In this document: piece by piece, positions 1,251 to 34,959 of the stretch
Position numbering within the stretch: position 1 is the first letter of the stretch
Layout: each line of letters begins with the position of its first letter
Source of the DNA: Mustelus asterias
Lineage: Eukaryota
Length of the DNA: 64,000 nt
Assembly (NCBI RefSeq): GCF_964213995.1
Contig: NC_135830.1
Coordinates: 5,394,001 to 5,458,000 of the forward strand
Direction of reading: 5' to 3'
Position numbers and translations under genes: made by a program
The notes under the pieces: model-generated
The model's database searches: none
What the model was told of the DNA's origin: nothing
What the model saw: only the letters and a program-made list of their open reading frames with translations

Positions 1251-3639
1251 TCAGCAGGTGGGACGAATGAATGACTCCCTTCCCATAGTCAGAGGGAGTG
1301 AACATTCTCTTCTCAGTTTCAATGCACTGGTGTATAATGAGATGAGATTCCCTAAACTCAGACCAAAATGGCAACACTTGAATCATCTCTAGTCAGTGTG
1401 GATTTGTTGATGGGACAGCAGTTCCCCAGAACTTTTGTTGCACTTCCCGCAGTTCAGTCTCGTCAGTGTGAACTTGCTGGTGCATCAGCAGATGGGATGA
1501 ATTAGTGAATCCCTTCCCACTCTCCGTGCAAGTGAATGGCCTCACCCCAGTGTGAACGTGTTGGTGCCTCAGCAAGTTGGATGAATTAATGAATCTCTTC
1601 CCACACTCAGGGCAGGTGAATGGTCTCTTCCCAGTGTAAATCAGCTGGTATGTCAGCAGAGTGGACATCTGAGCAAATCCCTTCCCACACTCTTTTCAGG
1701 TGAACGGCCTCTCCCCAGTGTGAATCCACTGGTGTACAGTGAGGTCAGATGATTGTGTGAACCCAGTCCCACAATGAGAGCACCTGAATGGTCTCATGTC
1801 ATTGTGAACATGTTGATGACGTATCAGTTCCCCAGAATTTTTGTAGCACTTCGCACAGTCCATGCATTTGAAAGGTCTCTCCGCAGTGTGAACTAGTTGG
1901 TGTCTCAATAGATGTGATGAATTAGTGAATCCCTTCCCACACTCGGTGCAGGTAAATGGTCTCTCCCCAGTGTGAACGCACTGATGAGTTTCCAGCATAA
2001 CTGAGTAACTGAATCCCTTCCCACAGTCCTTACATTTCCACAGCTTCTCCATGGTGTGGGTGTCTTTGTCTCTCTCCAGGTTCTACAGTCAGATGAAGCC
2101 TCGTCCACACACACAACACACGTACGGTTTCTCCCCACTGTGAATGGTACTTTCTCCTTCCATGTTTACAACACAATGATTTCAGGTTTTGATAAATTGG
2201 GCGACTCCATCAGATTCTGATGTGATGTTTACTAAGAACAAAGAACATTACAGCACAGGAACAGGCCCTTCGGCCCTCCAAGCCTGCACCAACCATGCTG
2301 CCTGACTTAACTAAAACCCCTACCCTTCCGGGGACCATATCCCTCTATTCCAATCCTATTCATGTACTTGTCAAGACGCCCCTTAAAAGTCACTGCCGTA
2401 TCCGCTTCCACTACCTCCCCCGGCAACGAGTTCCAGGCACCCATCACTCTCTGGAAAAAATCTGCCTCGTACATCTCCTTTAAACATTGCCCCTCACACC
2501 TTAAACCTATGCCCCCTAGTAATTGACTCTTCCACCCTGGGAAAAAGCTTCTGACTATCCACTCTGTCCATGCCTCTCATAATCTTGTAGACTTCTATCA
2601 GGTCTCCCCTCAACCTCCATCGCTCCATTGAGAACAAACCAAGTTTCTTCAACCTCTCCTTATAACTAATGCCCTCTATACCAGGCAACATCATGGTAAA
2701 TTTTTTCTGCACCCTCTCCAAAGCCTACACATCCTTCTGGTCGTGTGGAGACCAGAATTGAACACTATATTCCAAGTGCGGCCTAACTAAGGTTCCATAA
2801 AGCTGCAACCTGACTTGCCAATTTTTAAACTCACTACCCTGGCCGATGAAGGCAAACATGCCATATGCCTTCTTGACTACCTTCTCCACCTGCATTGCCA
2901 CTTTCAGTGACCTGTACACCCAGATCCCTTTGCCTATCAAAACTCTAAAGGGTTCTGCCATTTACTGTATATTTCCTATCTGTATTAGACCTTCCAAAAT
3001 GCATTACCTCACATTTGTCCGGATTAAACTCCATCTGCCATCTCTCTGCCTAAGCCTCCAAATGATCTATATCCTGCTGTATCCTCTGATTGTCCTCATC
3101 GCTATCTGCAAATCCACCAACCTTTGTGTTGTCCGCAAACTTACCAATCAATCCAGTTACATTTTCCTCCAAATCATTTATATACATTACAAATAGCAAA
3201 GGTCCCAGCACTGATCCCTGAGGAACACCACTTGTCACAGCCCTCCATCCAGAAATGCACCCTTCTATTGCTACCCTCTGTCTTCTTTGACCGAGCCAGT
3301 TTTGTATCCACCTTGCCAGCTCACCTCTGATCCCATGCGACTTCACCTTCTACACCAGTCTGCCATGAGGGTCCTTGTCCAAGGCCTTTCTGAAGTCCAT
3401 GTAGACAACATCCACTGCCCTATCCTCATCAATCATCTTCATCACTTCCTCGAAAAACTCAATCACGTTTGTGAGACACGACCTCCCCGTCACAAAACCA
3501 TGTTGCCTCTCACTAATACGTCCACTTATTTCCAAGTGGGAATAAAGCCTGTCCCGAAGAATCCTCTCCGATAATTTCCCTACCACTGATGTAACTTTAG
3601 GTTGAGTTTTCCAACTGCAAATCCTTCCTTCCAATTGCC
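1250..3639 (-). pseudogene. C2H2 zinc-finger unit A (KRAB-less), frameshifted and split by a LINE at 2233-3597
   Basis: ORFs 1696..2052 and 1393..1668 carry CxxC..HxxxH fingers and TGERP linkers in different frames. Acceptor tttcacag at 3640-3641. The exon 5' end is paralogous to unit C. Confidence 0.85.
2233..3597 (-). mobile_element. CR1-type LINE fragment, degraded
   Basis: Broken RT ORFs 3350..3634, 3050..3346, 2725..2961 and 2494..2721; tail near 2235. Confidence 0.9.
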
Positions 3640-3658
3640 CTGTGAAATTATTTCAAAA

Positions 3659-3842
3659 AGTAAGAAGTTTAACAAACACCAGGTTAAAGTCCAACAGGTT
3701 TATTTGGTAGCAAATGCCACGAGCTTTCGGAACAGGCTGTCCCTTCGTCAGGTGGAGTGGAGAAATGCTCACAAACAGGGCATACAGAGACACAAACTCA
3801 ATTTACAGAATAATGATTGGAATGCAGTCTTATTATTATTAT
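3659..3842 (-). mobile_element. Penelope-like terminal fragment with hammerhead motif and 14-bp TSD
   Basis: Direct repeat aaattatttcaaaa at 3645-3658 and 3843-3856. The body matches copies at 14083/15327, 19396, 19632, 28304 and 34840. Confidence 0.7.
3717..3755 (-). ncRNA. Minimal type-I hammerhead ribozyme motif
   Basis: CCAC-CUGACGA-A-GGGAC agccu GUUCC-GAAA-GC-UC-GUGG: conserved core, helix I, helix II and palindromic AGCU in place of helix III. Confidence 0.7.
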
Positions 3843-4244
3843 AAATTATTTCAAAACAGAGAAAAGGAAAGGAGACAAGCCGCAAAAGCAGAAATTGAGC
3901 TGAACAAATTTGCTCATTTGTGGGGCAGGCGCTAGAAAAATGTGACCATGAAAACTGACGTTGTTGTGAAAAATTCAACTGGTTCACTGGTAGGGGAACC
4001 TACCACCTTTTCTGGACTGACACCAGAAGGGAGGGAAGGGAGAGGGTGAGAACTGGAGCAGCATGGGGTGACGGGAGGGAATTTTATTTACTTACAAATC
4101 AATCAACCACCAACCTCCACCACCGAGGAGGACCAGGGTAGTAGGTGTCTGTGAACATCATCCCTCCAAAATTCCCTTCAAGTCACACATCACCCTGACT
4201 TATCTGACATCTTGTACTGGATGAACAAGAAATTCCCTCCATTT

Positions 4245-6804: not shown

Positions 6805-7315
6805 GATATTTGAAATATACAGACATTAAATCATCCAACCTGGAGAGACACGAGGACATCTACACCATAGAGAACCCATGGGAATGTGGGGACTGTGGGA
6901 AGGAATTCAGTTCTCCATCCAGCTGGAAGCACATCAGCGCAGTCACACTGGGAAGAGTCTGTTCATCTGCACCGTGTGTGGGAAGAGTTTTAGTCGAATG
7001 TTCAACCTTCGCACTCACCAGCGACTTCACACTGGGGAGCGACCATTCACCTGCTCTGTGTGTATGAAGGGATTCAGCAGTTCATCTCACCTGCTGAAAC
7101 ACAAGCGTGCTCACACTGGGGAAAGGCCTTTCACCTGCTCTGTGTGTGGGAAGAGATTCACTAACTCATCTGATCTCCTGATACACCAGCGAATTCACAC
7201 CGGGGAGAGGCCGTTCACCTGCTCCATATGTGGGAACAGATTCACTCAGTCACAAAACCTAATGAGACACCAGCGAGCTCACAAGTCTTCCGGAGGTAGA
7301 TTCCCCAGTTACTGA
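6805..7315 (+). pseudogene. C2H2 zinc-finger unit B, frameshift in first finger
   Basis: Acceptor ctttcacag ends 6804. Finger 1 begins in frame 6810 and ends in frame 6878, then four intact fingers follow. An assembly error cannot be excluded. Confidence 0.75.
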
Positions 7316-8900: not shown

Positions 8901-9226
8901 TTTAAAAATCCCATGTGACCAATTGATGTCATGGCTGATCTGAAATCTGGTTCCTTCACCTCCTGCGTGTCCACCGTTATGTCTCTCCTGCTCCCACAGT
9001 GCCCAGAGTCTTGAGAGACCCAGACTGGGTGACAGGTTCCCTTCCCTGAAGGACATTAGTAAATCAATTGTTGTTTTTTTGACAATCCAGCGATTTTCAT
9101 GGTCACTTTTTCCGAGCGCCTGCCCCACAAATTACCAGATTCATTCAGCTCAATTTCACAACCTGCCTTTGTGTTTTTGTGGGTTCGCGCTCACTCCCTT
9201 TTTTCTGTTTTAAATTAATTTCACAG

Positions 9227-10101
9227 GGTTTTAGAAGAGGAGGATATGCAGTCAGGAAACTTGTACCAAACGTCACATCAGGATCTGATGGAGTCACCCA
9301 ATTTATCAGAACTGGAAAATATTTTGAACATGGAAGGAAAAAGCACCGTTCACAGTGAGGAGAAACCGTACGTGTGTTGTGTGTGTGGACAAGATTTCAG
9401 ACGATTCGCTGTCCTGTCCAGACACAAGCGCAGTCACACTGGAGAAAAACCATGGAAATGTGGGGAGTGTGGGAAAGGATTCAATTATCCATATGAGCTG
9501 GAAATTCACCAACGCAGTCACAATGGGCAGAGGCCGTTTACCTGCTCTGTGTGTGGGAAGGGATTCACTCAGTCATACACCCTACTGATACACCAGCGAC
9601 TTCACACTGAGAAAAAGCTGGTGTGGGAAGGGATTCATTCAATCATCCCATCTCATGACACATCAGCGAATTCACACTGGGGAGAGACCCTTTAAATGTC
9701 CAGACTGTGGGAAAAGCTATAAATGTTCTGGTGAGCTGATGCTCCATCAACGTGTTCACACTGACGAGAGACCATTCAAATGCTCCCAGTGTGGAGCAGG
9801 GTTCAGGCGATCATCTCAACTCATTTCACACCGGCAAGTTCACATGGAGGAGAGACCTTTCAAATGTTCAGACTGCGGGAACTGCTATAAACGTCCCAGG
9901 GACCTGATGCTCCATCAACGTATTCACACTGATGAGAGACCATTCCGGTGCTCTAACTGTGGGACTGGATTCAGGCGATCATCTCATCTCACTGTCCATC
10001 AGCGAATTCACACTGGGGAGAGACCGTTCACCTGCTCCGTGTGTGGGAAGAGCTTCACTCAGAAATCCAACCTGCTGACACATCGACAGATTCACAAGTG
10101 A
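9227..10101 (+). pseudogene. C2H2 zinc-finger unit C, internal deletion/frameshift near 9615
   Basis: Acceptor tttcacag ends 9226. ORFs 9246..9695 (3 fingers) and 9655..10101 (5 fingers) are out of frame with each other. Confidence 0.8.
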
Positions 10102-14082: not shown

Positions 14083-14134
14083 CACAGTAAGAAGTTTGAC
14101 AACACCAGGTTAAAGTCCATCAGGTTTATTTGGT

Positions 14135-15326
14135 ATCTATCTTGACTTCCAAAAGGCCTTTGACAAGGTGCCTCACGGGAGACTGCTGAGTAAAATAAGG
14201 GCCCATGGTATTCGAGGCAAGGTACTAACATGGATTGACGATTGGCTGTCAGACAGAAGGCAGAGAGTTGGGATAAAAGGTTCTTTCTCAGAATGGCAAC
14301 CGGTGACAAGTGGTGTCCCGCAGGGTTCAGTGTTGGGGCCACAGCTGTTCTCTTTATATATTAACGATCTAGATGACGGGACTGGGAGCATTCTGGCCAA
14401 GTTTGCCGATGATACAAAGATAGGTGGAGGGGCAGGTAGTATTGAGGAGGTGGGGAGGCTGCAGAAAGATTTAGACAGTTTAGGAGAGTGGTCCAAGAAG
14501 TGGCTGATGAAATTCAACGTGGGCAAGTGCGAGGTTGTACACTTTGGAAAAAAAAATAGAGGCATGGACTATTTTCTAAACGGTGACAAAATTCATAATG
14601 CTAAAGTGCAAAGGGACTTGGGAGTCCTAGTCCAGGATTCTCTAAAGGTAAACTTGCAGGTTGAGTCCGTAATTAAGAAAGCAAATGTAATGTTGTCATT
14701 TATCTCAAGAGGCTTGGAATACAAAAGCAGGGATGTACTTCTGAGGCTTTATAAAGCACTGGTTAGGCCCCATTTGGAGTACTGTGAGCAATTTTGGGCC
14801 CCACACCTCAGGAAGGACATACTGGCACTGGAGCGGGTCCAGCGGAGATTCACACGGATGATCCCAGGAATGGTAGGCCTGACATACGATGAACGTCTGA
14901 GGATCGTGGGATTATATTCATTGGAGTTTAGGAGGTTGAGGGGAGATCTGATAGAAACTTACAAGATAATGAACGGCTTAGATAGGATGGACGTAGGGAA
15001 GTTGTTTCCATTAACAGGGGAGACTAGGACGCGGGGGCACAGCCTTAGAATAAAAGGGAGTCACTTTAGAACAGAGATGAGGAGAAATTTCTTCAGCCAG
15101 AGAGTGGTGGGTCTGTGGAATTCATTGCCACAGAGGGCTGTGGAGGCCGAGACGTTGAGCGTCTTCAAGACAGAAATTGATAAATTCTTGATTTCTCGAG
15201 GAATTAAGGGCTATGGGGAGAGAGCGGGTAAATGGAGTTGAAATCAACCATGATTGAATGGTGGAGTGGACTCGATGGGCCGAATGGCCTTACTTCCGCT
15301 CCTATGTCTTATGGTCTTATGGTCTT
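14135..15326 (+). mobile_element. Young CR1-type LINE 3' fragment inserted into a Penelope-like tail
   Basis: Uninterrupted ORF 14168..15241 and (tcttatgg)n tail. Flanks 14083-14134 and 15327-15440 join into one Penelope-like copy. Confidence 0.9.
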
Positions 15327-15332
15327 AAAAGC

Positions 15333-15369
15333 CACAAGCTTTCGGGGCCTTAAGCCCCTTCTTCAGGTG
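15333..15369 (-). ncRNA. Minimal hammerhead ribozyme motif
   Basis: CAC-CUGAAGA-A-GGGGC uuaag GCCCC-GAAA-GC-UU-GUG. Confidence 0.7.
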
Positions 15370-16592
15370 AGTGGGAATTCTGTTCACAAACAGGGCATAT
15401 AAAGACACAAACTCAATTTACAGAATAATGGTTGGAATGGGTCTTCTGTTTTTTTCCCCCTGTTTATAATGCATCATTTCTAAATTGTTGCTTCTTAATA
15501 TTCTGATTTAAAACCATGGATAAGCTCAAACCACTTTTGGATAACCTGTGACTCCCTGATCAAGAATCTTACCGACCACTGCATGCCATCCTGGTCACCG
15601 TATTATAAAAAAGATATCTCTGCACTGGAGAAGGGTACAGAGATGATTTTTAATGATGATATCAGAAATGTAGAAAACAGCTCACCATCACCTTCTCAAG
15701 GTCAATCAGGGGTTAGCAATAAATGCTGGCCAAGCTCGCGATGTCCACATCCCATAAATGATTTTTAAACTGTGTGTTTGGTTATCTATCAGGAAAGGAT
15801 TGACACGCTCACGCTTTCTTGAAAAATTAAGGCTGAGGAGTAACCTAATAGAGGGCTTCAAAATTATAAAAGGTTTTGAAATAATGTTTCTTCTTTTGGA
15901 GAAAGGCAAAACTGGAGACCATCAATACAAGACAGTCGCCAAGAAACCCAATCGGAAATCCAAGATAAATTTCTCCACCCAAAGAGTGGTGAGAATATGG
16001 AAATCATGACCACAGGGAGTGAAATGAACTGTATCGATGTCTTTCAGGGGAAGCTCAACAAATATTTGTGTGTGATTTTATAATTCATTCAGGATTTATT
16101 TCCAAAATCTAGGAACAATAAAGTAACAGGAGATATTTTGAGGCATCTGAGAGTCTGTGTGTGTGTGTGAGGGTGTCTGTGAGTGTGTGTGTTACTTCTC
16201 ATTGGTTTCACACCAACATTCCTTTTTCTGAGCAGACATTCTGGCCCCTGATAAACCCATTGAGTGATTTGAATGGTACAATTCAGAGATTCTTCATCCA
16301 GGGTGAAACGACAGGCTGACTGTGTGCTGTGTAAAACCTGACATCTACACAACCTAATCCCACTTCTCCTGGAACAACGCAAAGTGACTACAATTTTCCA
16401 GATTGATTTCTTTGCTCTCAATATTATTTCAGATCGTTCATAAGTTCCATGATTTTGTTTTCCTTTAATACATCTATGGCGTCCAGTTTAAATACTCCCC
16501 TTAGTCTGACCAACGTATAGCAATGGGATTGCTGCTATTACAGGAATCCATTCTGTAAATCTGATTCCTGGCTCTCTGGAGTAAACACAGTA

Positions 16593-19395: not shown

Positions 19396-19733
19396 AAGAA
19401 GTTTAACAACACCAGGTTAAAGTCCAACAGGTTTATTTGGTAGCAAAAGCCACACAAGCTTTCGGAGCTACAGGAGAAGTGTTCCAGGAGAAGTGGGATT
19501 AGGTTGTGTAGATGTCAGGTTTTACACAGCACACAGTCAGTCTGTCGTTTCACCCTGGATGAAGAATCTCTGCATTGTACCATTCAATCACTCAATGGGT
19601 TTATCAGGGGCCAGAATGTCTGCTCAGAAAGAGCTTGTGTGGCTTTTGCTACAAAATAAACCTGTTGGCCTTTAACCTGGTGCTGTTAAACCTCTTACTG
19701 TGTTTACCCCAGTCCAATGCCGGCATCTCCACA
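19396..19733. mobile_element. Inverted pair of Penelope-like tails enclosing a captured 150-bp genomic segment
   Basis: Arms 19396-19469 and 19632-19733 are reverse complements. Filler 19480-19630 is the reverse complement of 16225-16376. Confidence 0.8.
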
Positions 19734-19827
19734 TCTCTGGAGTAATGCATTGATCCAGACCTTCCCACTTAACACCAATCCATATCCCCATCTGAGTTCC
19801 AGATTTTAATATGATTTCTCAAAACAC

Positions 19828-21370: not shown

Positions 21371-22136
21371 AAACACTTTCTTTTCTCCCTCTTTCAATTT
21401 ATTTTCTCATTCTGGGGAAAACTGGGGACTTGCAGCAACTGAAGGGAAAGGAAGTGAATCCAGTCTGTACATTCCACACATTTTTACTCCAGTAATGTAG
21501 ACATTTATCTATCTGGCCGCCTGCATGGAGATTTTCAGCTCTCTGTGTCCAGGACAGGAAGCAGTGAGCATGGATCTGTCAATCAGCCTCAATCAGCACC
21601 TTCAGGAGAATTGGGAGGGTGAATATTAGATACAGCGGAGTGAGAATGGAGGGAGAGTGTGTGGAATGGAGATTTACAGCTTTTGGGGAATGAGGGAGGA
21701 AAGAATGTTCCACAGACACTAGAATTGTCTGTTCTGAATTTCTATCTTGTATTGACAGTGATGACTTCAATAAATTCCTTTTACAGAATATCAGAAGGTG
21801 AGGATTTACAGACAGTAATCTCAAAGCAAATGTCACATCAATATCTGACAGTTATTCAATTCATCATGTCCTGAACATCATCAGCCTTTGTATCTGGAAG
21901 GAGAAATATTTCTCTGTTCTTTTTGCTTCTGGAGATTTTAAACATCAGCGTGACTGAGAATTTACCAAGTCTCACGCACACACCCGAGTGAGAGTGTTCC
22001 AGTGCACTGACTGTGGAAAGAGCTTTAATCAGTGAAAAAAACATTGCGGCATTCACAGCAGGGAGAGACTGTACCCGTGTTCTGTGTGAGATTTAACTGA
22101 TTGTTTAACCTGGAGAGTCACAAGGAAACCTGCACC

Positions 22137-22895
22137 ATGGAGAAACCGTGGAAATGTGGGGACTGTGGGAAGGGATTCAGGTTCCCATCTGAGCTGGAAA
22201 CTCATCGACGCATTCACACTGGGGAGCGGCTGTTCACCTGCTCTGTGTGTGGGAAGGGATTCTATGATTCATCCAACCTGCAAACACACCAACGAATTCA
22301 CACGGGGAAGAGACCATTCACCTGTTCTGATTGTGGTACCGGATTTACTCAGTTATGTCATCTGCAGACACACCAGCAAATTCACACTGCGGAGAGACCG
22401 TTTACCTGTCCTGTGTGTGGGAAGGGATTCACTGACTTATCCAGCCTGCGGATACACCAGCGAGTACATTCCGGGGAGAGGCCGTTCAACTGTCCTGTGT
22501 GTGGGAAAGGATTCACTTGGTTATCCAGCATGCGCAGACACAAAGTCAGTCACACCAATGAGAGACCCTATAAATGCTCTGAATGTGGGAGCGACTTCAA
22601 AAGCTCTCAGGTTCTGATGTCCCACCAGCGCATTCACACTGAGGAGAGACCGTTCAGTTGCTCTCACTGCTCAAAGAGATTTAGAATGTCATCCTATCTG
22701 CGGGTACACCAGCGAGTTCACACTGGGGAGAAACAATTCACTTGCTCTGCCTGTGGAAAAGGATTCACTCAGTTAACCAATCTGCAGAGACACCAGCGAG
22801 TTCATACTGGGGAGAGGCCATTCACCTGCACCTTGTGTGAGAACGGGTTCACTCAGTCATCCCACCTGCAGACACACCAACGAGTTCACAAGTGA
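22137..22895 (+). CDS. C2H2 zinc-finger protein, unit D, 9 fingers, 252 aa, no KRAB
   Basis: accATGg start, [14 protein letters not shown]..., nine intact fingers. Exon acceptor ttttacag ends 21786. Confidence 0.85.
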
Positions 22896-23859: not shown

Positions 23860-25213
23860 CGTCAAACCTGGAGAGTTACAAGGCCGTCCATACCCTGAAG
23901 ATATGATGGAAATGTGGGGATTGTAGGAAAGGATTCCATGCCCCCTGTGAACTGGAAACCAATCGACCCAGGCACAGCAGAAAGAAGCTGTTCATCTAAT
24001 CTGTGTGTGGGAAGGGATTCATTGATTCATCCACTCTGCAGCGACACCAGCGAGTTCACACTAGGGAGAGGCCATTCACCTGCTCTGTATGGGGGAAGAG
24101 ATTCAGTAATTCCTCCATTCTGCTGATATACCAGCAAGTTCACACTGGGGAGAAACCGTTCACTTGTTCTGAGTGTGGGAAGGGACTCAATGACTCATCA
24201 ACCCTGCTGATACACCAGCGCATTCACACTGGAGAGAGGCCATTCCCCTACTCTGAGTGTAGGAAGGGATTCACTCAGTTATCCAATCTGCTGAGACACC
24301 AGTGCACTCCCCACCAATGAGAAAACCTTTAAATGCTCTGATTGTGGGAGTTGTTTCAGAAACTCTGCCGACCTGAAGATCCACCAGTGCATTCATACTG
24401 GGGAGAGACCGTTCTGCTGCTCTCACTGCACAAGGAGGTTTCGAACATCATCCAAGCGACTGAGCCATTGGCGAGTTCACACTGGGGAGAGGCCTTTCAC
24501 CCACCCTGTGTGTGAACATATAGAACACTACAGCACAGAACAGGCCTTTCGGCCGACGATGTTGTGCCGAGCTTTATCCGAAACCAAGATCAAGCTATCC
24601 CACTCCCTATCATCCTGGTGTGCTCCATGTGCCTATCCAATAACCGCTTAAATGTTCCTAAAGTGTCTGACTCCACTATCACTGCAGGCAGTCCATTCCA
24701 CACCCCAACCACTCTCTGCGTAAAGAACCTACCTCTGATATCCTTCCTGTATCTCCCACCACGAACCCTATAGTTATGCCCCCTTGTAATAGCTCCATCC
24801 ACCCGAGGAAATAGTCTTTGAACGTTCACTCTATCTATCCCCTTCATCATTTTATAAACCTCTATTAAGTCTCCCCTCAGCCTCCTCCGCTCCAGAGAGA
24901 ACAGCCCTAGCTCCCTCAACCTTTCCTCATAAGACCTACCCTCCAAACCAGGCAGCATCCTGGTAAATTTCCTCTGCACTCTTTCCAGCGCTTCCACATC
25001 CTTCTTATAGTGAGGTGACCAGAACTGCACACAATATTCCAAATGTGGTCTCACCAAGGTCCTGTACAGTTGCAGCATAACCCCACGGCTCTTAAACTCC
25101 AACCCCTGTTAATAAAAGCTAATGTGTGGATGGGAGTCACTTGGTCATCGGAGCTGCTGGGACACTCGGGCAGTCACACTGATTGGAGCCTTTCTTGATG
25201 CTCTGACTGTGGG
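23860..25213 (+). pseudogene. C2H2 zinc-finger unit E, degraded and split by a LINE at 24516-25122
   Basis: ORF 24003..24320 has fingers with lost Cys/His, stops and frameshifts. Finger-like sequence resumes at about 25123. Confidence 0.8.
24516..25122 (-). mobile_element. Young CR1-type LINE 3' fragment, same subfamily as 51772-55590
   Basis: The translation of ORF 24590..25102 is nearly identical to the C-terminus of ORF 51856..54873. Confidence 0.92.
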
Positions 25214-27428: not shown

Positions 27429-28303
27429 CTAGGGGACGGAGACCAGGATATGAAATTAGATTACTTTATTTATCCAGGTAATCTTATTGTTATCTTTATT
27501 TTCCCCGTTCTCCTTTTCAAACTGTTCATTTATTCTTGAACTTAATTTTCAATGTATACCGACTCTTAAGCTCAGGACACTCAGTAACCTATTTCCGTAA
27601 CTATTTTCACACCTGATCTTTATTGACATTCCTTAGACAGTCCATGTCAGAAAGCACTGAAGATGTTTTCTTGAAAATCAGTTGATTTTTTAACAATTCG
27701 GAACTATCCCTTATTGAAGAATATTATGACTGATATCGAGGAACGTTCACTGATCAATGATTGTTTTCACAGATGGTTACTGATCTGTAAACTGTGAATG
27801 TTGTTGTTTAAGAGTTGGGATGTAATTTCCGATCTGTGCTTCTTTATGGTGGAAATGTTTAGTAGATCGTGAGCTTAATTCAGTTTCTCAGCGTGTTTAT
27901 CTGTTCATTGTACATTGGGATAATAAATCTGTGGATATCTCCATTAAAAAGTCACGTTTAAATTTTACTTTCATCATTTGCCTACCGTTTGTATTGAAGA
28001 TTTTGCATTTGTGTGCGTGTGCATGAGCATCTCGTGCTCTGCATTAATCTTTGGCTCTGAGTTAATATGTGTTTATGAGTGTTAATGTACGCGTTCATTT
28101 GCCAGTGATTGTTGATTTGTGTAGTTGTGTGTCTGCATCTGTGCGCATATTTTATTCTTTTGTCATTGTGTATATATGACTCTATTATTGTGTGAAGTCT
28201 ATGAATATATATTAATGCCACTCTTAATGCGTGCACATGTGTTTATGCCTATTGCTCTGTGTTAATTTCTGTCACTCTAATAATGTTTGTTTCCCTTTCT
28301 GTG

Positions 28304-28428
28304 GAGTTGTCGGCGTTGGACTGGGGTCGGCACAGTAAGTAGTCTCACAACACCAGGTTAAAGTCCAACAGGTTTATTTGGTTGCACGAGCTTTCGGAGC
28401 GTTGTCCCTTCATCAGGTGACTACTTAC
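28304..28428 (-). mobile_element. 125-bp Penelope-like insertion with hammerhead motif (28385-28419) and 16-bp TSD
   Basis: TSD tgtttccctttctgtg at 28288-28303 and 28429-28444. Motif CAC-CUGAUGA-AGGGACAACGCUCC-GAAA-GC-UC-GUG. Confidence 0.75.
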
Positions 28429-28439
28429 TGTTTCCCTTT

Positions 28440-29024
28440 CTGTGTGCGTCTGTGTGCACGCCTGTTAACATGTCAGTGTATGTATTACACGTGTTGACAT
28501 TCTTTATAACGGTGCGTTGATGTATATTTGTGTTTCGATGTGTAGTAATGTGTGCTATGGTGTTCTGTTCTATGAGCATGTTAATGTTTGCGTCTACATG
28601 TTTGTGTGTAAATGTTTTGCTGTCTGTTCTTCTATATGCAGTCTGGTGATTTGTTTACATGTATTTCCATATATGTTTGTGAATGTGTATAACATTGTGT
28701 GTCTTTATATCTATATTCCTATCAGCGTGAACGTGTGCTAATATATGTATTTATTTGAGTCTAAGGATGTGCTTGTGTATTTATGTGGGTCTGCATGCGT
28801 GTGTATCTGTCTGTATTGTGTCTATGCATGTATGTGTTTGTGTTTGGGTCTGTACCTACTCACGTATGTGTATGTGTATGTACTTGTGTGTTTCATGTGT
28901 ACATGTGTGCGTTTGTACATATTTGATTATGTGTGTGTATGTTGTTGTTTTAGTGTCTGTTTGTACAAGGGCGCGTGTCCATGTGTTCGTATGTGTGTGT
29001 GTGTGTATGTGTGCGTGTGTATGC

Positions 29025-34307: not shown

Positions 34308-34839
34308 CTGGGAAAGAATAGTCGATTAAACAAGTTAGACTATTACCTGCGTTTATTAATTAATCAAACATATTTATACAAGTATGTTTCTATATTAGGT
34401 ATAGCTCTTGGGGCTAAAGGGATCAGTGGATATGGGTAGTAGGCGGGGTCAGGATATTATTGAGCCATGATCAAAGTGAATGGTGGAGCAGGGTCAAAGG
34501 GCCGAATGGCCTCCTCCTGCTTCTATTTTCTATGTTTCAACGTCACGATTTGACTAGAATTATGAACTTAAGTTAATATTTCCCGATTAAAACCTACGCA
34601 CACCTTTGAGTTGCTGTTACTCCTATCAGTTGGGAATCGCCATTTTTGTAGAAACTCACATCACTGTCACCACCTCTATCAGATTGGAAAGACAAAAACA
34701 TTTTGAGGTCATCGTAATGACATACCATTCATTGGATTAACAGAGAAGAGTAAAGACTTTCTCCATTATTTCAGGCACTACCTATTTCTCAAACAACAGC
34801 ACGTTGTGATGAAGAAGTTGTCTCTTCATTCATATCAGC

Positions 34840-34959
34840 CACTCACCTGATGAAAGAGCTCCAAAAGTTCGCAATTCCAAATAATCCTGTTGTACTTTAA
34901 CCTGGTGTTGTGAGACTCCTTACTGTGCCCACCCCAACCTAACGCCGGCATCTCCACAT
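34840..34959 (+). mobile_element. Penelope-like tail with decayed hammerhead motif
   Basis: cacCTGATGAaagagctccaaaagttcg followed by the family body; GAAA is mutated. Confidence 0.65.

What the first reader, a model, noticed from the sequence alone, without database searches (positions are those of the whole stretch)
3659..3842. Dispersed short retroelement carrying a minimal hammerhead ribozyme, with stem covariation between copies
Seen: minus-strand copies at 3717-3755, 15333-15369 and 28385-28419 all read CAC-CUGANGA-A-[stem II]-GAAA-GC-UH-GUG. Stem II changes sequence but keeps pairing (GGGAC/GUUCC and GGGGC/GCCCC; one mismatch in the third copy). The free core position N is C, A or U. 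Helix III is replaced by palindromic AGCU. Insertions have 12-, 14- and 16-bp TSDs. Known: Penelope-like elements carry minimal type-I hammerheads with palindromic helix III that are thought to cleave as dimers. Inferred: this is a shark Penelope-like or non-autonomous ribozyme-bearing family. No Penelope ORF is present in the window.
Basis: partly seen in the sequence, partly recalled or inferred. Interest (0 to 1): 0.7.

Follow-up and report, generated by a model that had tools for sequence, protein, structure and literature searches.

The report
Shark Penelope retroelement hammerhead stubs
The three motifs are real but are the broken-off ends of a very abundant Penelope-type jumping gene carrying an already described tiny hammerhead ribozyme, and in its youngest branch over a thousand genomic copies begin exactly at the predicted cut site, which likely records self-cleavage in living cells.

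Summary
The three minus-strand motifs are there as described. The 14- and 16-bp TSDs are confirmed; the 12-bp TSD is not. They are not a separate short element. They are 5'-truncated 3' ends (pLTRs) of an autonomous Neptune-type Penelope-like element. Intact copies elsewhere encode an 892-aa RT–CX4CxxC–GIY-YIG protein in a ~3,021-bp tandem unit with one hammerhead per pLTR. The genome holds 106,596 exact motif matches. The core is invariant across eight subfamilies (0/11 positions vary vs 28/60 in the flank), and helices I and II change compensatorily. Inserted copies decay roughly neutrally, so selection likely acts on the transposing RNA. This is the known minimal PLE hammerhead (PMC4209133). 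One extra: in the youngest subfamilies 1,396 copies start exactly at the predicted cut site, versus 135–360 at neighbouring positions. More copies start just upstream of the motif, a likely transcription start. Cleavage itself was not assayed. This scan already reported the family and both footprints on other DNA, including this genome.

The parts
3659..3830 (-). Copy 1: 5'-truncated, tail-less 3' end of the pLTR (subfamily 'E'); begins ~111 nt upstream of the predicted cut site, ~135 nt after the ORF stop of full copies
3717..3755 (-). Minimal type-I hammerhead: helix I CCAC/GUGG, core CUGACGA, bulged A, stem II GGGAC(A)/(U)GUUCC, GAAA, palindromic AGCU; predicted cut between 3721 and 3720
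   Evidence: cut site inferred from hammerhead numbering
3645..3658 (.). 14-bp target-site duplication, left copy
3843..3856 (.). 14-bp target-site duplication, right copy; a ~12-nt (TTA)n filler lies between it and the element
15327..15439 (-). Copy 2, 5' part (subfamily 'B0') with hammerhead at 15333-15369; predicted cut between 15336 and 15335; interrupted 9 nt downstream of the cut
14136..15326 (+). CR1-like LINE 3' fragment (367-aa open RT frame) inserted into copy 2
   Evidence: paralog L040 lacks it; family label from the translation and recall
14083..14135 (-). Copy 2, 3' part (conserved 3' box and tail-less end)
28304..28420 (-). Copy 3: begins 4 nt upstream of C3 (inside the putative transcription-start cluster), hammerhead at 28385-28419 with a broken stem II pair, ends with the ~30-nt PLE tail
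28421..28428 (+). Short inverted, tail-less second arm of the same insertion (boundary with the main arm uncertain by 2-3 nt)
28288..28303 (.). 16-bp TSD, left copy (right copy 28429-28444)
19396..19469 (-). Further fragment, truncated inside stem II (no complete ribozyme)
19632..19735 (+). Further tailed fragment starting 5 nt upstream of the cut site
34839..34958 (+). Further tailed fragment starting 8 nt upstream of C3; stem II partly deleted and GAAA changed (dead motif)

Best explanation
The three motifs are 5'-truncated 3' ends (pLTRs) of an autonomous Penelope-like retroelement, likely of the Neptune clade, that carries the known minimal type-I hammerhead; the motif is likely selected on the transposing RNA and likely cleaves only part of it, predicted to need a second hammerhead and/or the element's own protein. 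Shown: an 892-aa RT-linker-GIY-YIG ORF in a ~3,021-bp tandem unit; one motif per pLTR, with the cut ~100 nt before the ATG; an invariant core and compensatory helices across subfamilies; two 3' ends ~37 nt apart (tail-less and tailed); inverted pairs with 8-15-bp TSDs. Inferred: transcription starts about 6 nt upstream of the core, 29 nt after a TATA-like box. The protein nicks both target strands and primes reverse transcription at the two 3' sites. cDNAs that run off an uncut RNA give stubs starting just before helix I (window copy 3); cDNAs from cut RNA give stubs starting at the cut site; others stop at random (copies 1, 2). Once inserted, the stubs decay and have no evident host role.
For: Linkage to the ORF: loci extend 5' into RT/GIY-YIG frames; Pfam RVT_1 E=1e-9 above cut-off, GIY-YIG E=7e-4 just below cut-off. 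17 of 20 fetched regions show a 912/913-codon open frame (selected for this); in most of them a motif lies at each end, and tandem units occur. Copy number: 106,596 exact matches, reversed control 0; 46 descriptor hits per Mb vs 0-3 in shuffles. Selection between subfamilies: core 0/11 variable vs 28/60 in the upstream flank, p=0.002; 99.2% of cells paired, with two-sided changes C-G to U-A (helix I) and G-C to A-U (stem II) and an A-U/G-U/G-C series. Decay after insertion: private non-CpG changes in core 10/950, flank 92/4958 (p=0.10), 3' box 32/2790 (p=1.0). Insertion anatomy: 28 of 33 divergent pairs have one tailed and one tail-less end; 21 of 33 have TSD >=8 bp. Starts at the cut site in B2/B3: 1,396 vs 360, 333, 135 at -1, -2, -4 and 156 at +4 under a stricter filter. 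Starts at C3-6: 5,074 vs 1,284 at U4. An extra G precedes 32 of 52 listed starts not explained by fold-back. Literature: PMC4209133, PMC11167929, PMC8557442.
Against: No cleavage assay and no RNA-end data: only assembled contigs of guessed-RNA runs from other organisms were available. In the 1.4-Mb systematic sample, starts at the cut site were not enriched over all subfamilies (4 of 51, p=0.28); the peak was tested genome-wide only for B2/B3. The AAGCUU palindrome beside the cut could favour fold-back junctions without cleavage; 24 of the first 100 cut-site starts are preceded by AAA and sit in such junctions. The upstream cluster replicated only weakly in held-out data (3 of 9 independent events, p=0.08), and the extra G was not significant in the small sample (9/18 vs 17/49, p=0.20). 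The 3' box is as invariant as the core (0/28; it was the anchor used to collect copies), so conservation alone does not prove catalysis; the core could also be constrained as promoter or protein-binding sequence. The covariation rests on few independent events (2 two-sided changes; 86/500 shuffles reach that number). Neptune placement rests on the linker motif, not on a tree.
Confidence: 0.88

Rival explanations
1. Same element, but the motif never cleaves in vivo. It is kept as a structured protein-binding or promoter/initiator element, and the cut-site pile-up comes from fold-back at the AAGCUU palindrome or from RT pausing.
For: Min-HHRs are nearly inactive in vitro (PMC4209133, part 2). 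In Anolis, HHR mutants did not affect insertion and no RNA reads ended at the cut (PMC11167929, part 2). More copies start upstream of the motif than at the cut. Helix I is predicted unformed in monomers of 6 of 8 fragments, including the youngest subfamily (P<=0.02). No cut-site excess in the pooled small sample.
Against: Exactly the catalytic positions are invariant while N7 and H17, the tolerant positions, vary among C/U/A. The start peak is one nucleotide sharp and lies 3' of the palindrome rather than at its centre (-4: 135, -2: 333, -1: 360, 0: 1,396).
Confidence: 0.3
2. A separate non-autonomous SINE- or retrozyme-like family with its own short master copies, mobilised by the PLE protein.
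For: Most copies are short: 55 of 88 extend less than 120 nt upstream of the cut. Many start near one position. PLE-derived retrozymes are reported in one chondrichthyan (bioRxiv 10.64898/2026.07.22.740005, part 2 of 5).
Against: All eight subfamilies defined here have members that continue at least 450 nt upstream into the endonuclease coding region. 5' ends are variable. The tandem units seen are full ~3-kb ORF units, not short monomers. The window's copies 1 and 2 extend well past the common start.
Confidence: 0.07
3. These particular copies were co-opted by the host as self-cleaving elements in the zinc-finger gene cluster.
For: They lie among C2H2-ZNF frames. The copy-3 insertion occurs in at least 27 segmental paralogs.
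Against: Copy 3 has a broken stem II (predicted P(helix II)=0.00); 9 of its 27 paralogs lost the bulged A and 9 carry the stem mismatch. Copy 2 is disrupted by a LINE, and its paralog L040 lost G12. Inserted cores decay at about the neighbouring rate. Local density is ordinary (6 3' ends in 64 kb vs 88 per Mb).
Confidence: 0.02

Closest known systems
Minimal hammerheads (min-HHR) in pLTRs of metazoan Penelope-like elements (Cervera and De la Pena 2014, PMC4209133; parts 1-2 of 4 read, supplement file 2 searched, file 1 not available)
   Same: Type-I topology, short helix I, extra nucleotide between A9 and 10.1, G10.1-C11.1, palindromic 15.2-16.2 with no helix III, location in pLTRs, thousands of solo truncated copies, inverted pairs, subfamily covariation.
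   Different: Host (no shark terms in the searched supplement file) and scale: 106,596 exact matches versus about 4,000 and 9,000 reported for coelacanth and Xenopus (different descriptors). Stem II is 5-6 bp, shorter than the 7-8 bp of Schistosoma.
Neptune clade of EN+ PLEs (features as given in PMC8557442, passages read)
   Same: [quoted passage not shown]
   Different: No tree against reference Neptune/Nematis proteins was run. Clear 8-16-bp TSDs in non-microsatellite DNA rather than a microsatellite bias. Nearest named full-length relatives are turtle proteins at ~40% identity.
Poseidon of Anolis carolinensis (PAc; Frangieh et al. 2024, PMC11167929; parts 1-2 of 4 read)
   Same: Two 3' ends a tail-length apart, matching its two internal RT start sites; both-strand cleavage would explain the inverted pairs; min-HHR in the pLTR.
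   Different: In PAc the ORF starts inside the ribozyme and RT starts within the ORF; here the cut lies ~100 nt before the ATG and the tail ends at the ATG. No RNA reads were found ending at the PAc cut site, whereas here genomic copies pile up at it in B2/B3.
Animal non-LTR retrozymes (bioRxiv 10.64898/2026.07.22.740005; parts 1-2 of 5 and passages read, supplements closed)
   Same: Type-I HHR related to PLE pLTRs; reported in one chondrichthyan.
   Different: Retrozymes are short tandem monomers without an ORF; the window's copies are dispersed truncations of a 3-kb coding unit.

Membership tests
EN+ Penelope-like element | Single ORF with PLE-type RT and C-terminal GIY-YIG endonuclease | tested here: met
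   892-aa ORF; RVT_1 E=1e-9; GIY-YIG E=7e-4, below Pfam cut-off; homologues carry PF00078 and, in several, PF01541. Present in genomic copies, absent from the window.
EN+ Penelope-like element | Tandem or partial-tandem arrangement forming pLTRs | tested here: met
   Units of 2,991-3,097 bp between successive motifs in L216-L235.
EN+ Penelope-like element | Inverted 5'-truncated arm and 30-40-bp tail at one end only | tested here: met
   3' ends bimodal (0-6 nt: 66; 32-50 nt: 43; of 116); 28 of 33 divergent pairs have one tail; window copy 3 shows both.
EN+ Penelope-like element | Spliceosomal intron in the 5' UTR (some PLEs) | tested here: inconclusive
   A GT..AG candidate of ~72 nt (C3-85 to C3-13) in 5 of 8 subfamily majorities, but no matching deletion in 250 genomic copies and no such joint in RNA-run contigs.
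Neptune clade | CX2-5CxxC linker between RT and EN | tested here: met
   C-X4-C-X2-C before the GIY-YIG domain; shared with Nematis per PMC8557442.
Neptune clade | RT phylogeny groups with Neptune rather than Nematis or Poseidon | not tested
   No labelled reference set was available from the tools; bioRxiv 2026.07.22.740005 reports only Neptune and Poseidon in vertebrates.
Minimal type-I hammerhead | Core C3 U4 G5 A6 N7 G8 A9 / G12 A13 A14 A15.1 / U16.1 H17 conserved | tested here: met
   0 of 11 fixed positions vary across 8 subfamily majorities vs 28 of 60 flank columns.
Minimal type-I hammerhead | Helices I and II supported by compensatory change | tested here: met
   99.2% of cells paired, 2 pairs with two-sided change, slid controls 23-56% paired; few independent events.
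Minimal type-I hammerhead | Palindromic 15.1-16.1 allowing a dimeric helix III | tested here: met
   AGCU in 45 of 46 descriptor hits; the dimer model is not favoured over monomers by nearest-neighbour energy.
Minimal type-I hammerhead | Self-cleavage after H17 | not testable with these tools
   Indirect only: 1,396 copy starts at the site in B2/B3 vs 135-360 nearby.
Non-LTR retrozyme / non-autonomous SINE | Short fixed-length monomer without ORF, in tandem or with its own fixed 5' end | tested here: not met
   Variable 5' ends continuous with the ORF; tandem units seen are ~3 kb and coding.

The most novel reading that the evidence does not exclude
The genome is a fossil record of how the element's RNA was processed: thousands of copies start at a capped transcription start 6 nt before the ribozyme core, and over a thousand copies of the youngest subfamilies start exactly at the cut site. 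Minimal Penelope hammerheads, nearly inactive in the test tube, would then cleave in the germ line, and the cleaved RNA would still be a substrate for two-ended target-primed reverse transcription. Subfamily-by-subfamily start counts would give an in vivo activity series for natural ribozyme variants.
Probability: 0.55. Interest if true: 0.65.

Novelty: new member of a known kind. Interest (0 to 1): 0.38.

Why it matters
The motif and its association with Penelope-like elements have been in print since 2014, so the finding as posed is ordinary. Its value is as a test system. Whether PLE minimal hammerheads cleave in vivo, and what for, is open: activity is low in vitro, protein-assisted and dispensable for insertion in the one element reconstituted. 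This family offers more than 100,000 motif copies, young copies with open reading frames, natural helix variants, and a one-nucleotide peak of copy starts at the predicted cut site, which makes the question directly testable.

Tried and rejected
Rfam scan: no hammerhead family at E<=5; minimal motifs fall below those models. PDB sequence search of the RT-EN region: no match at E<=0.1. 12-bp TSD: not found. Search with copy 3 as query was uninformative about subfamily diversity: 27 of 30 loci were segmental duplicates of one insertion. First decay test was confounded by unrecognised sub-subfamily differences in the flank and was redone with private changes only. Tail lengths were wrong owing to script errors and were redone. 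My first reading that no copies pile up at the cut site held only for the small pooled sample; genome-wide counts for B2/B3, prompted by earlier scan notes, showed a peak. Intron hypothesis for the pLTR: no support. Sequencing runs: no RNA holder listed on record; contigs of guessed-RNA runs from other organisms cover the element at mostly 90-99% identity but cannot show ends, strand or cleavage. The systematic sample was 1.4 Mb (140 stretches of 10 kb at round positions on the 25 largest contigs); a larger one was not obtained. Paper searches for a shark-specific description listed none by title or abstract start; subscription journals, Repbase/Dfam and bioRxiv supplements were not searchable, so absence from print is not established.

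Full report
Observation. The three minus-strand motifs are present at the stated coordinates. A descriptor requiring core, stem II and helix I finds exactly these three in the window, against 0.1 on average in 30 shuffles; the loose pattern alone is not significant, and Rfam has no hit. The 14-bp TSD (3645/3843) and the 16-bp TSD (28288/28429) are real; a 12-bp TSD was not found. Copy 2 is split by a 1.19-kb CR1-like fragment, and its 3' end lies at 14083-14135; paralog L040 is continuous across the site. Copy 3's stem mismatch is likely secondary: 18 of 27 paralogs of that insertion are fully paired. Three further fragments lie in the window. The window is a C2H2 zinc-finger cluster of a 3.68-Gb genome. 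Partial homologues in Chiloscyllium and Mustelus proteins at 73-79% identity indicate a shark-like host.

What it is. Genomic relatives of copy 1 share their 3' end and extend by variable lengths upstream into a frame with RT motifs, a C-X4-C-X2-C linker and a GIY-YIG domain. A protein search gave 5,189 candidates, 150 scored, many in frames of 912-913 codons. Twenty regions chosen for long frames or tandem spacing show the unit: an 892-aa ORF from the ATG (RVT_1 E=1e-9), about 3,021 bp per repeat, one hammerhead per pLTR with the cut ~100 nt before the next ATG, tandem arrays and inverted truncated arms. The window's copies are therefore truncated 3' ends of an autonomous Penelope-like element; no coding part lies in the window. 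The linker motif points to Neptune (PMC8557442, passages); no tree with references was run.

Abundance. 88 3' ends per Mb (bootstrap 65-113) and 46 intact motifs per Mb (31-62; shuffles 0-3) in a 1-Mb systematic sample; 106,596 exact matches to a family pattern genome-wide, reversed control 0. Cervera and De la Pena called 4,000 and 9,000 remarkable (PMC4209133), with other descriptors.

Selection. A tree built on sequence upstream of the motif (60 of 62 long copies; 2 dropped for lacking a recognisable motif) resolves subfamilies. Across eight subfamily majorities, none of 11 fixed core positions varies, versus 28 of 60 upstream columns (p=0.002), while N7 and H17 vary. The 28-nt 3' box is also invariant, but it was the collecting anchor. 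On 16 hand-picked natural copies, 99.2% of cells pair; helix I shows C-G to U-A, stem II shows G-C to A-U and an A-U/G-U/G-C series; slid controls pair at 23-56%. Only two pairs change on both sides, a number reached by 86 of 500 shuffles. In inserted copies (120 used, one per locus and subfamily, segmental duplicates removed), private non-CpG changes hit the core at 10/950, the flank at 92/4958 (p=0.10) and the 3' box at 32/2790. Selection thus likely acts on transposing lineages, not on the stubs.

Mechanism. 3' ends are bimodal, tail-less or with a 32-50-nt tail ending near the ATG. 28 of 33 divergent pairs carry one of each, and 21 of 33 have TSDs of 8-15 bp. This fits both-strand nicking and the two internal RT start sites shown for Anolis Poseidon (PMC11167929); applying it here is inference. 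5' starts cluster 3-11 nt upstream of C3: 14 of 37 independent events (p=4.5e-5; held-out set 3 of 9, p=0.08). Genome-wide, 5,074 copies start at C3-6 versus 1,284 at U4, under patterns that are not strictly equivalent. A TATA-like hexamer lies at C3-35 to -38 in 7 of 8 subfamilies, and an extra G precedes 32 of 52 listed starts not explained by fold-back (not significant in the small sample). This suggests run-off at a capped transcription start; window copy 3 starts there. In subfamilies B2/B3, 1,396 copies start exactly at the predicted cut versus 360, 333 and 135 at -1, -2 and -4, and 156 at +4 under a stricter filter. The pooled small sample showed no such excess (4 of 51), and fold-back at the adjacent palindrome is a possible confounder. 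With AGCU and no loop, helix III can form only between two motifs. Nearest-neighbour energies put the double hammerhead slightly above two monomers and well above other dimers, so help from protein, as reported for PAc, is likely needed. Cleavage was not measured, and RNA data were uninformative.

Comparison and novelty. Every testable feature of the published min-HHR and of EN+ PLEs is met; the non-autonomous-family reading is not. Five paper searches listed no shark-specific description, but Repbase/Dfam, subscription journals, supplement file 1 of PMC4209133 and bioRxiv supplements were not seen. Papers seen: PMC4209133 parts 1-2 of 4 and a search of supplement file 2; PMC11167929 parts 1-2 of 4; bioRxiv 10.64898/2026.07.22.740005 parts 1-2 of 5 and passages; PMC8557442 and PMC6155905 passages. 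Earlier notes of this scan (501 findings with these words in at least 33 genomes, 146 in this genome) already describe the family, the transcription-start cluster and the cut-site peak. I had seen the upstream cluster independently; the TATA, extra-G and B2/B3 cut-site tests were prompted by those notes and held when tested here. Verdict: real feature, new member of a known kind, interest 0.38.

Noticed in passing
window 14136-15326: A 1.19-kb CR1-like LINE 3' fragment with an open 367-aa RT frame is inserted into copy 2 without a visible TSD; paralog L040 lacks it, which orders the two events.
   Followed up: yes
window 28288-28444 and L066-L092: The copy-3 insertion is present at 27 or more loci with the same flanks, mostly on C71 and small contigs: a marker of segmental amplification of this zinc-finger gene region.
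   Followed up: partly
L001, L036, L066 (G000:C91) and L002 (C71): Contig C91 carries a near-identical inverted copy of at least 25 kb of this window (99.7% at copy 1), and C71 has another 99.7% copy of the copy-1 region: recent duplication or uncollapsed haplotype.
   Followed up: no
window 1699-2082(-), 6830-7312, 9219-10098, 22101-22892, 24295-24648(+): Six frames with 2-9 C2H2 zinc fingers each (84-bp period); several look frameshifted.
   Followed up: no
L228, L223, L230 flanks: Several PLE copies of different subfamilies are nested in short tandem repeats at one locus, suggesting repeated use of the same target sequence.
   Followed up: no
L033:5065-5628(-): A 188-aa frame resembling the transmembrane part of a retroviral envelope (label from recall) lies near a PLE copy.
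   Followed up: no
P0008-P0010, P0060, P0062: Related PLE coding sequence appears fused into predicted host proteins (turtle KRAB-ZNF isoforms, shark PPP1R12A-like); may be annotation artefact or exonisation.
   Followed up: no
pLTR, C3-85 to C3-13 (L224 about 2221-2293): GT..AG intron-like candidate of ~72 nt ending just upstream of helix I in 5 of 8 subfamilies, reminiscent of the D. virilis Penelope intron; no spliced form seen.
   Followed up: partly
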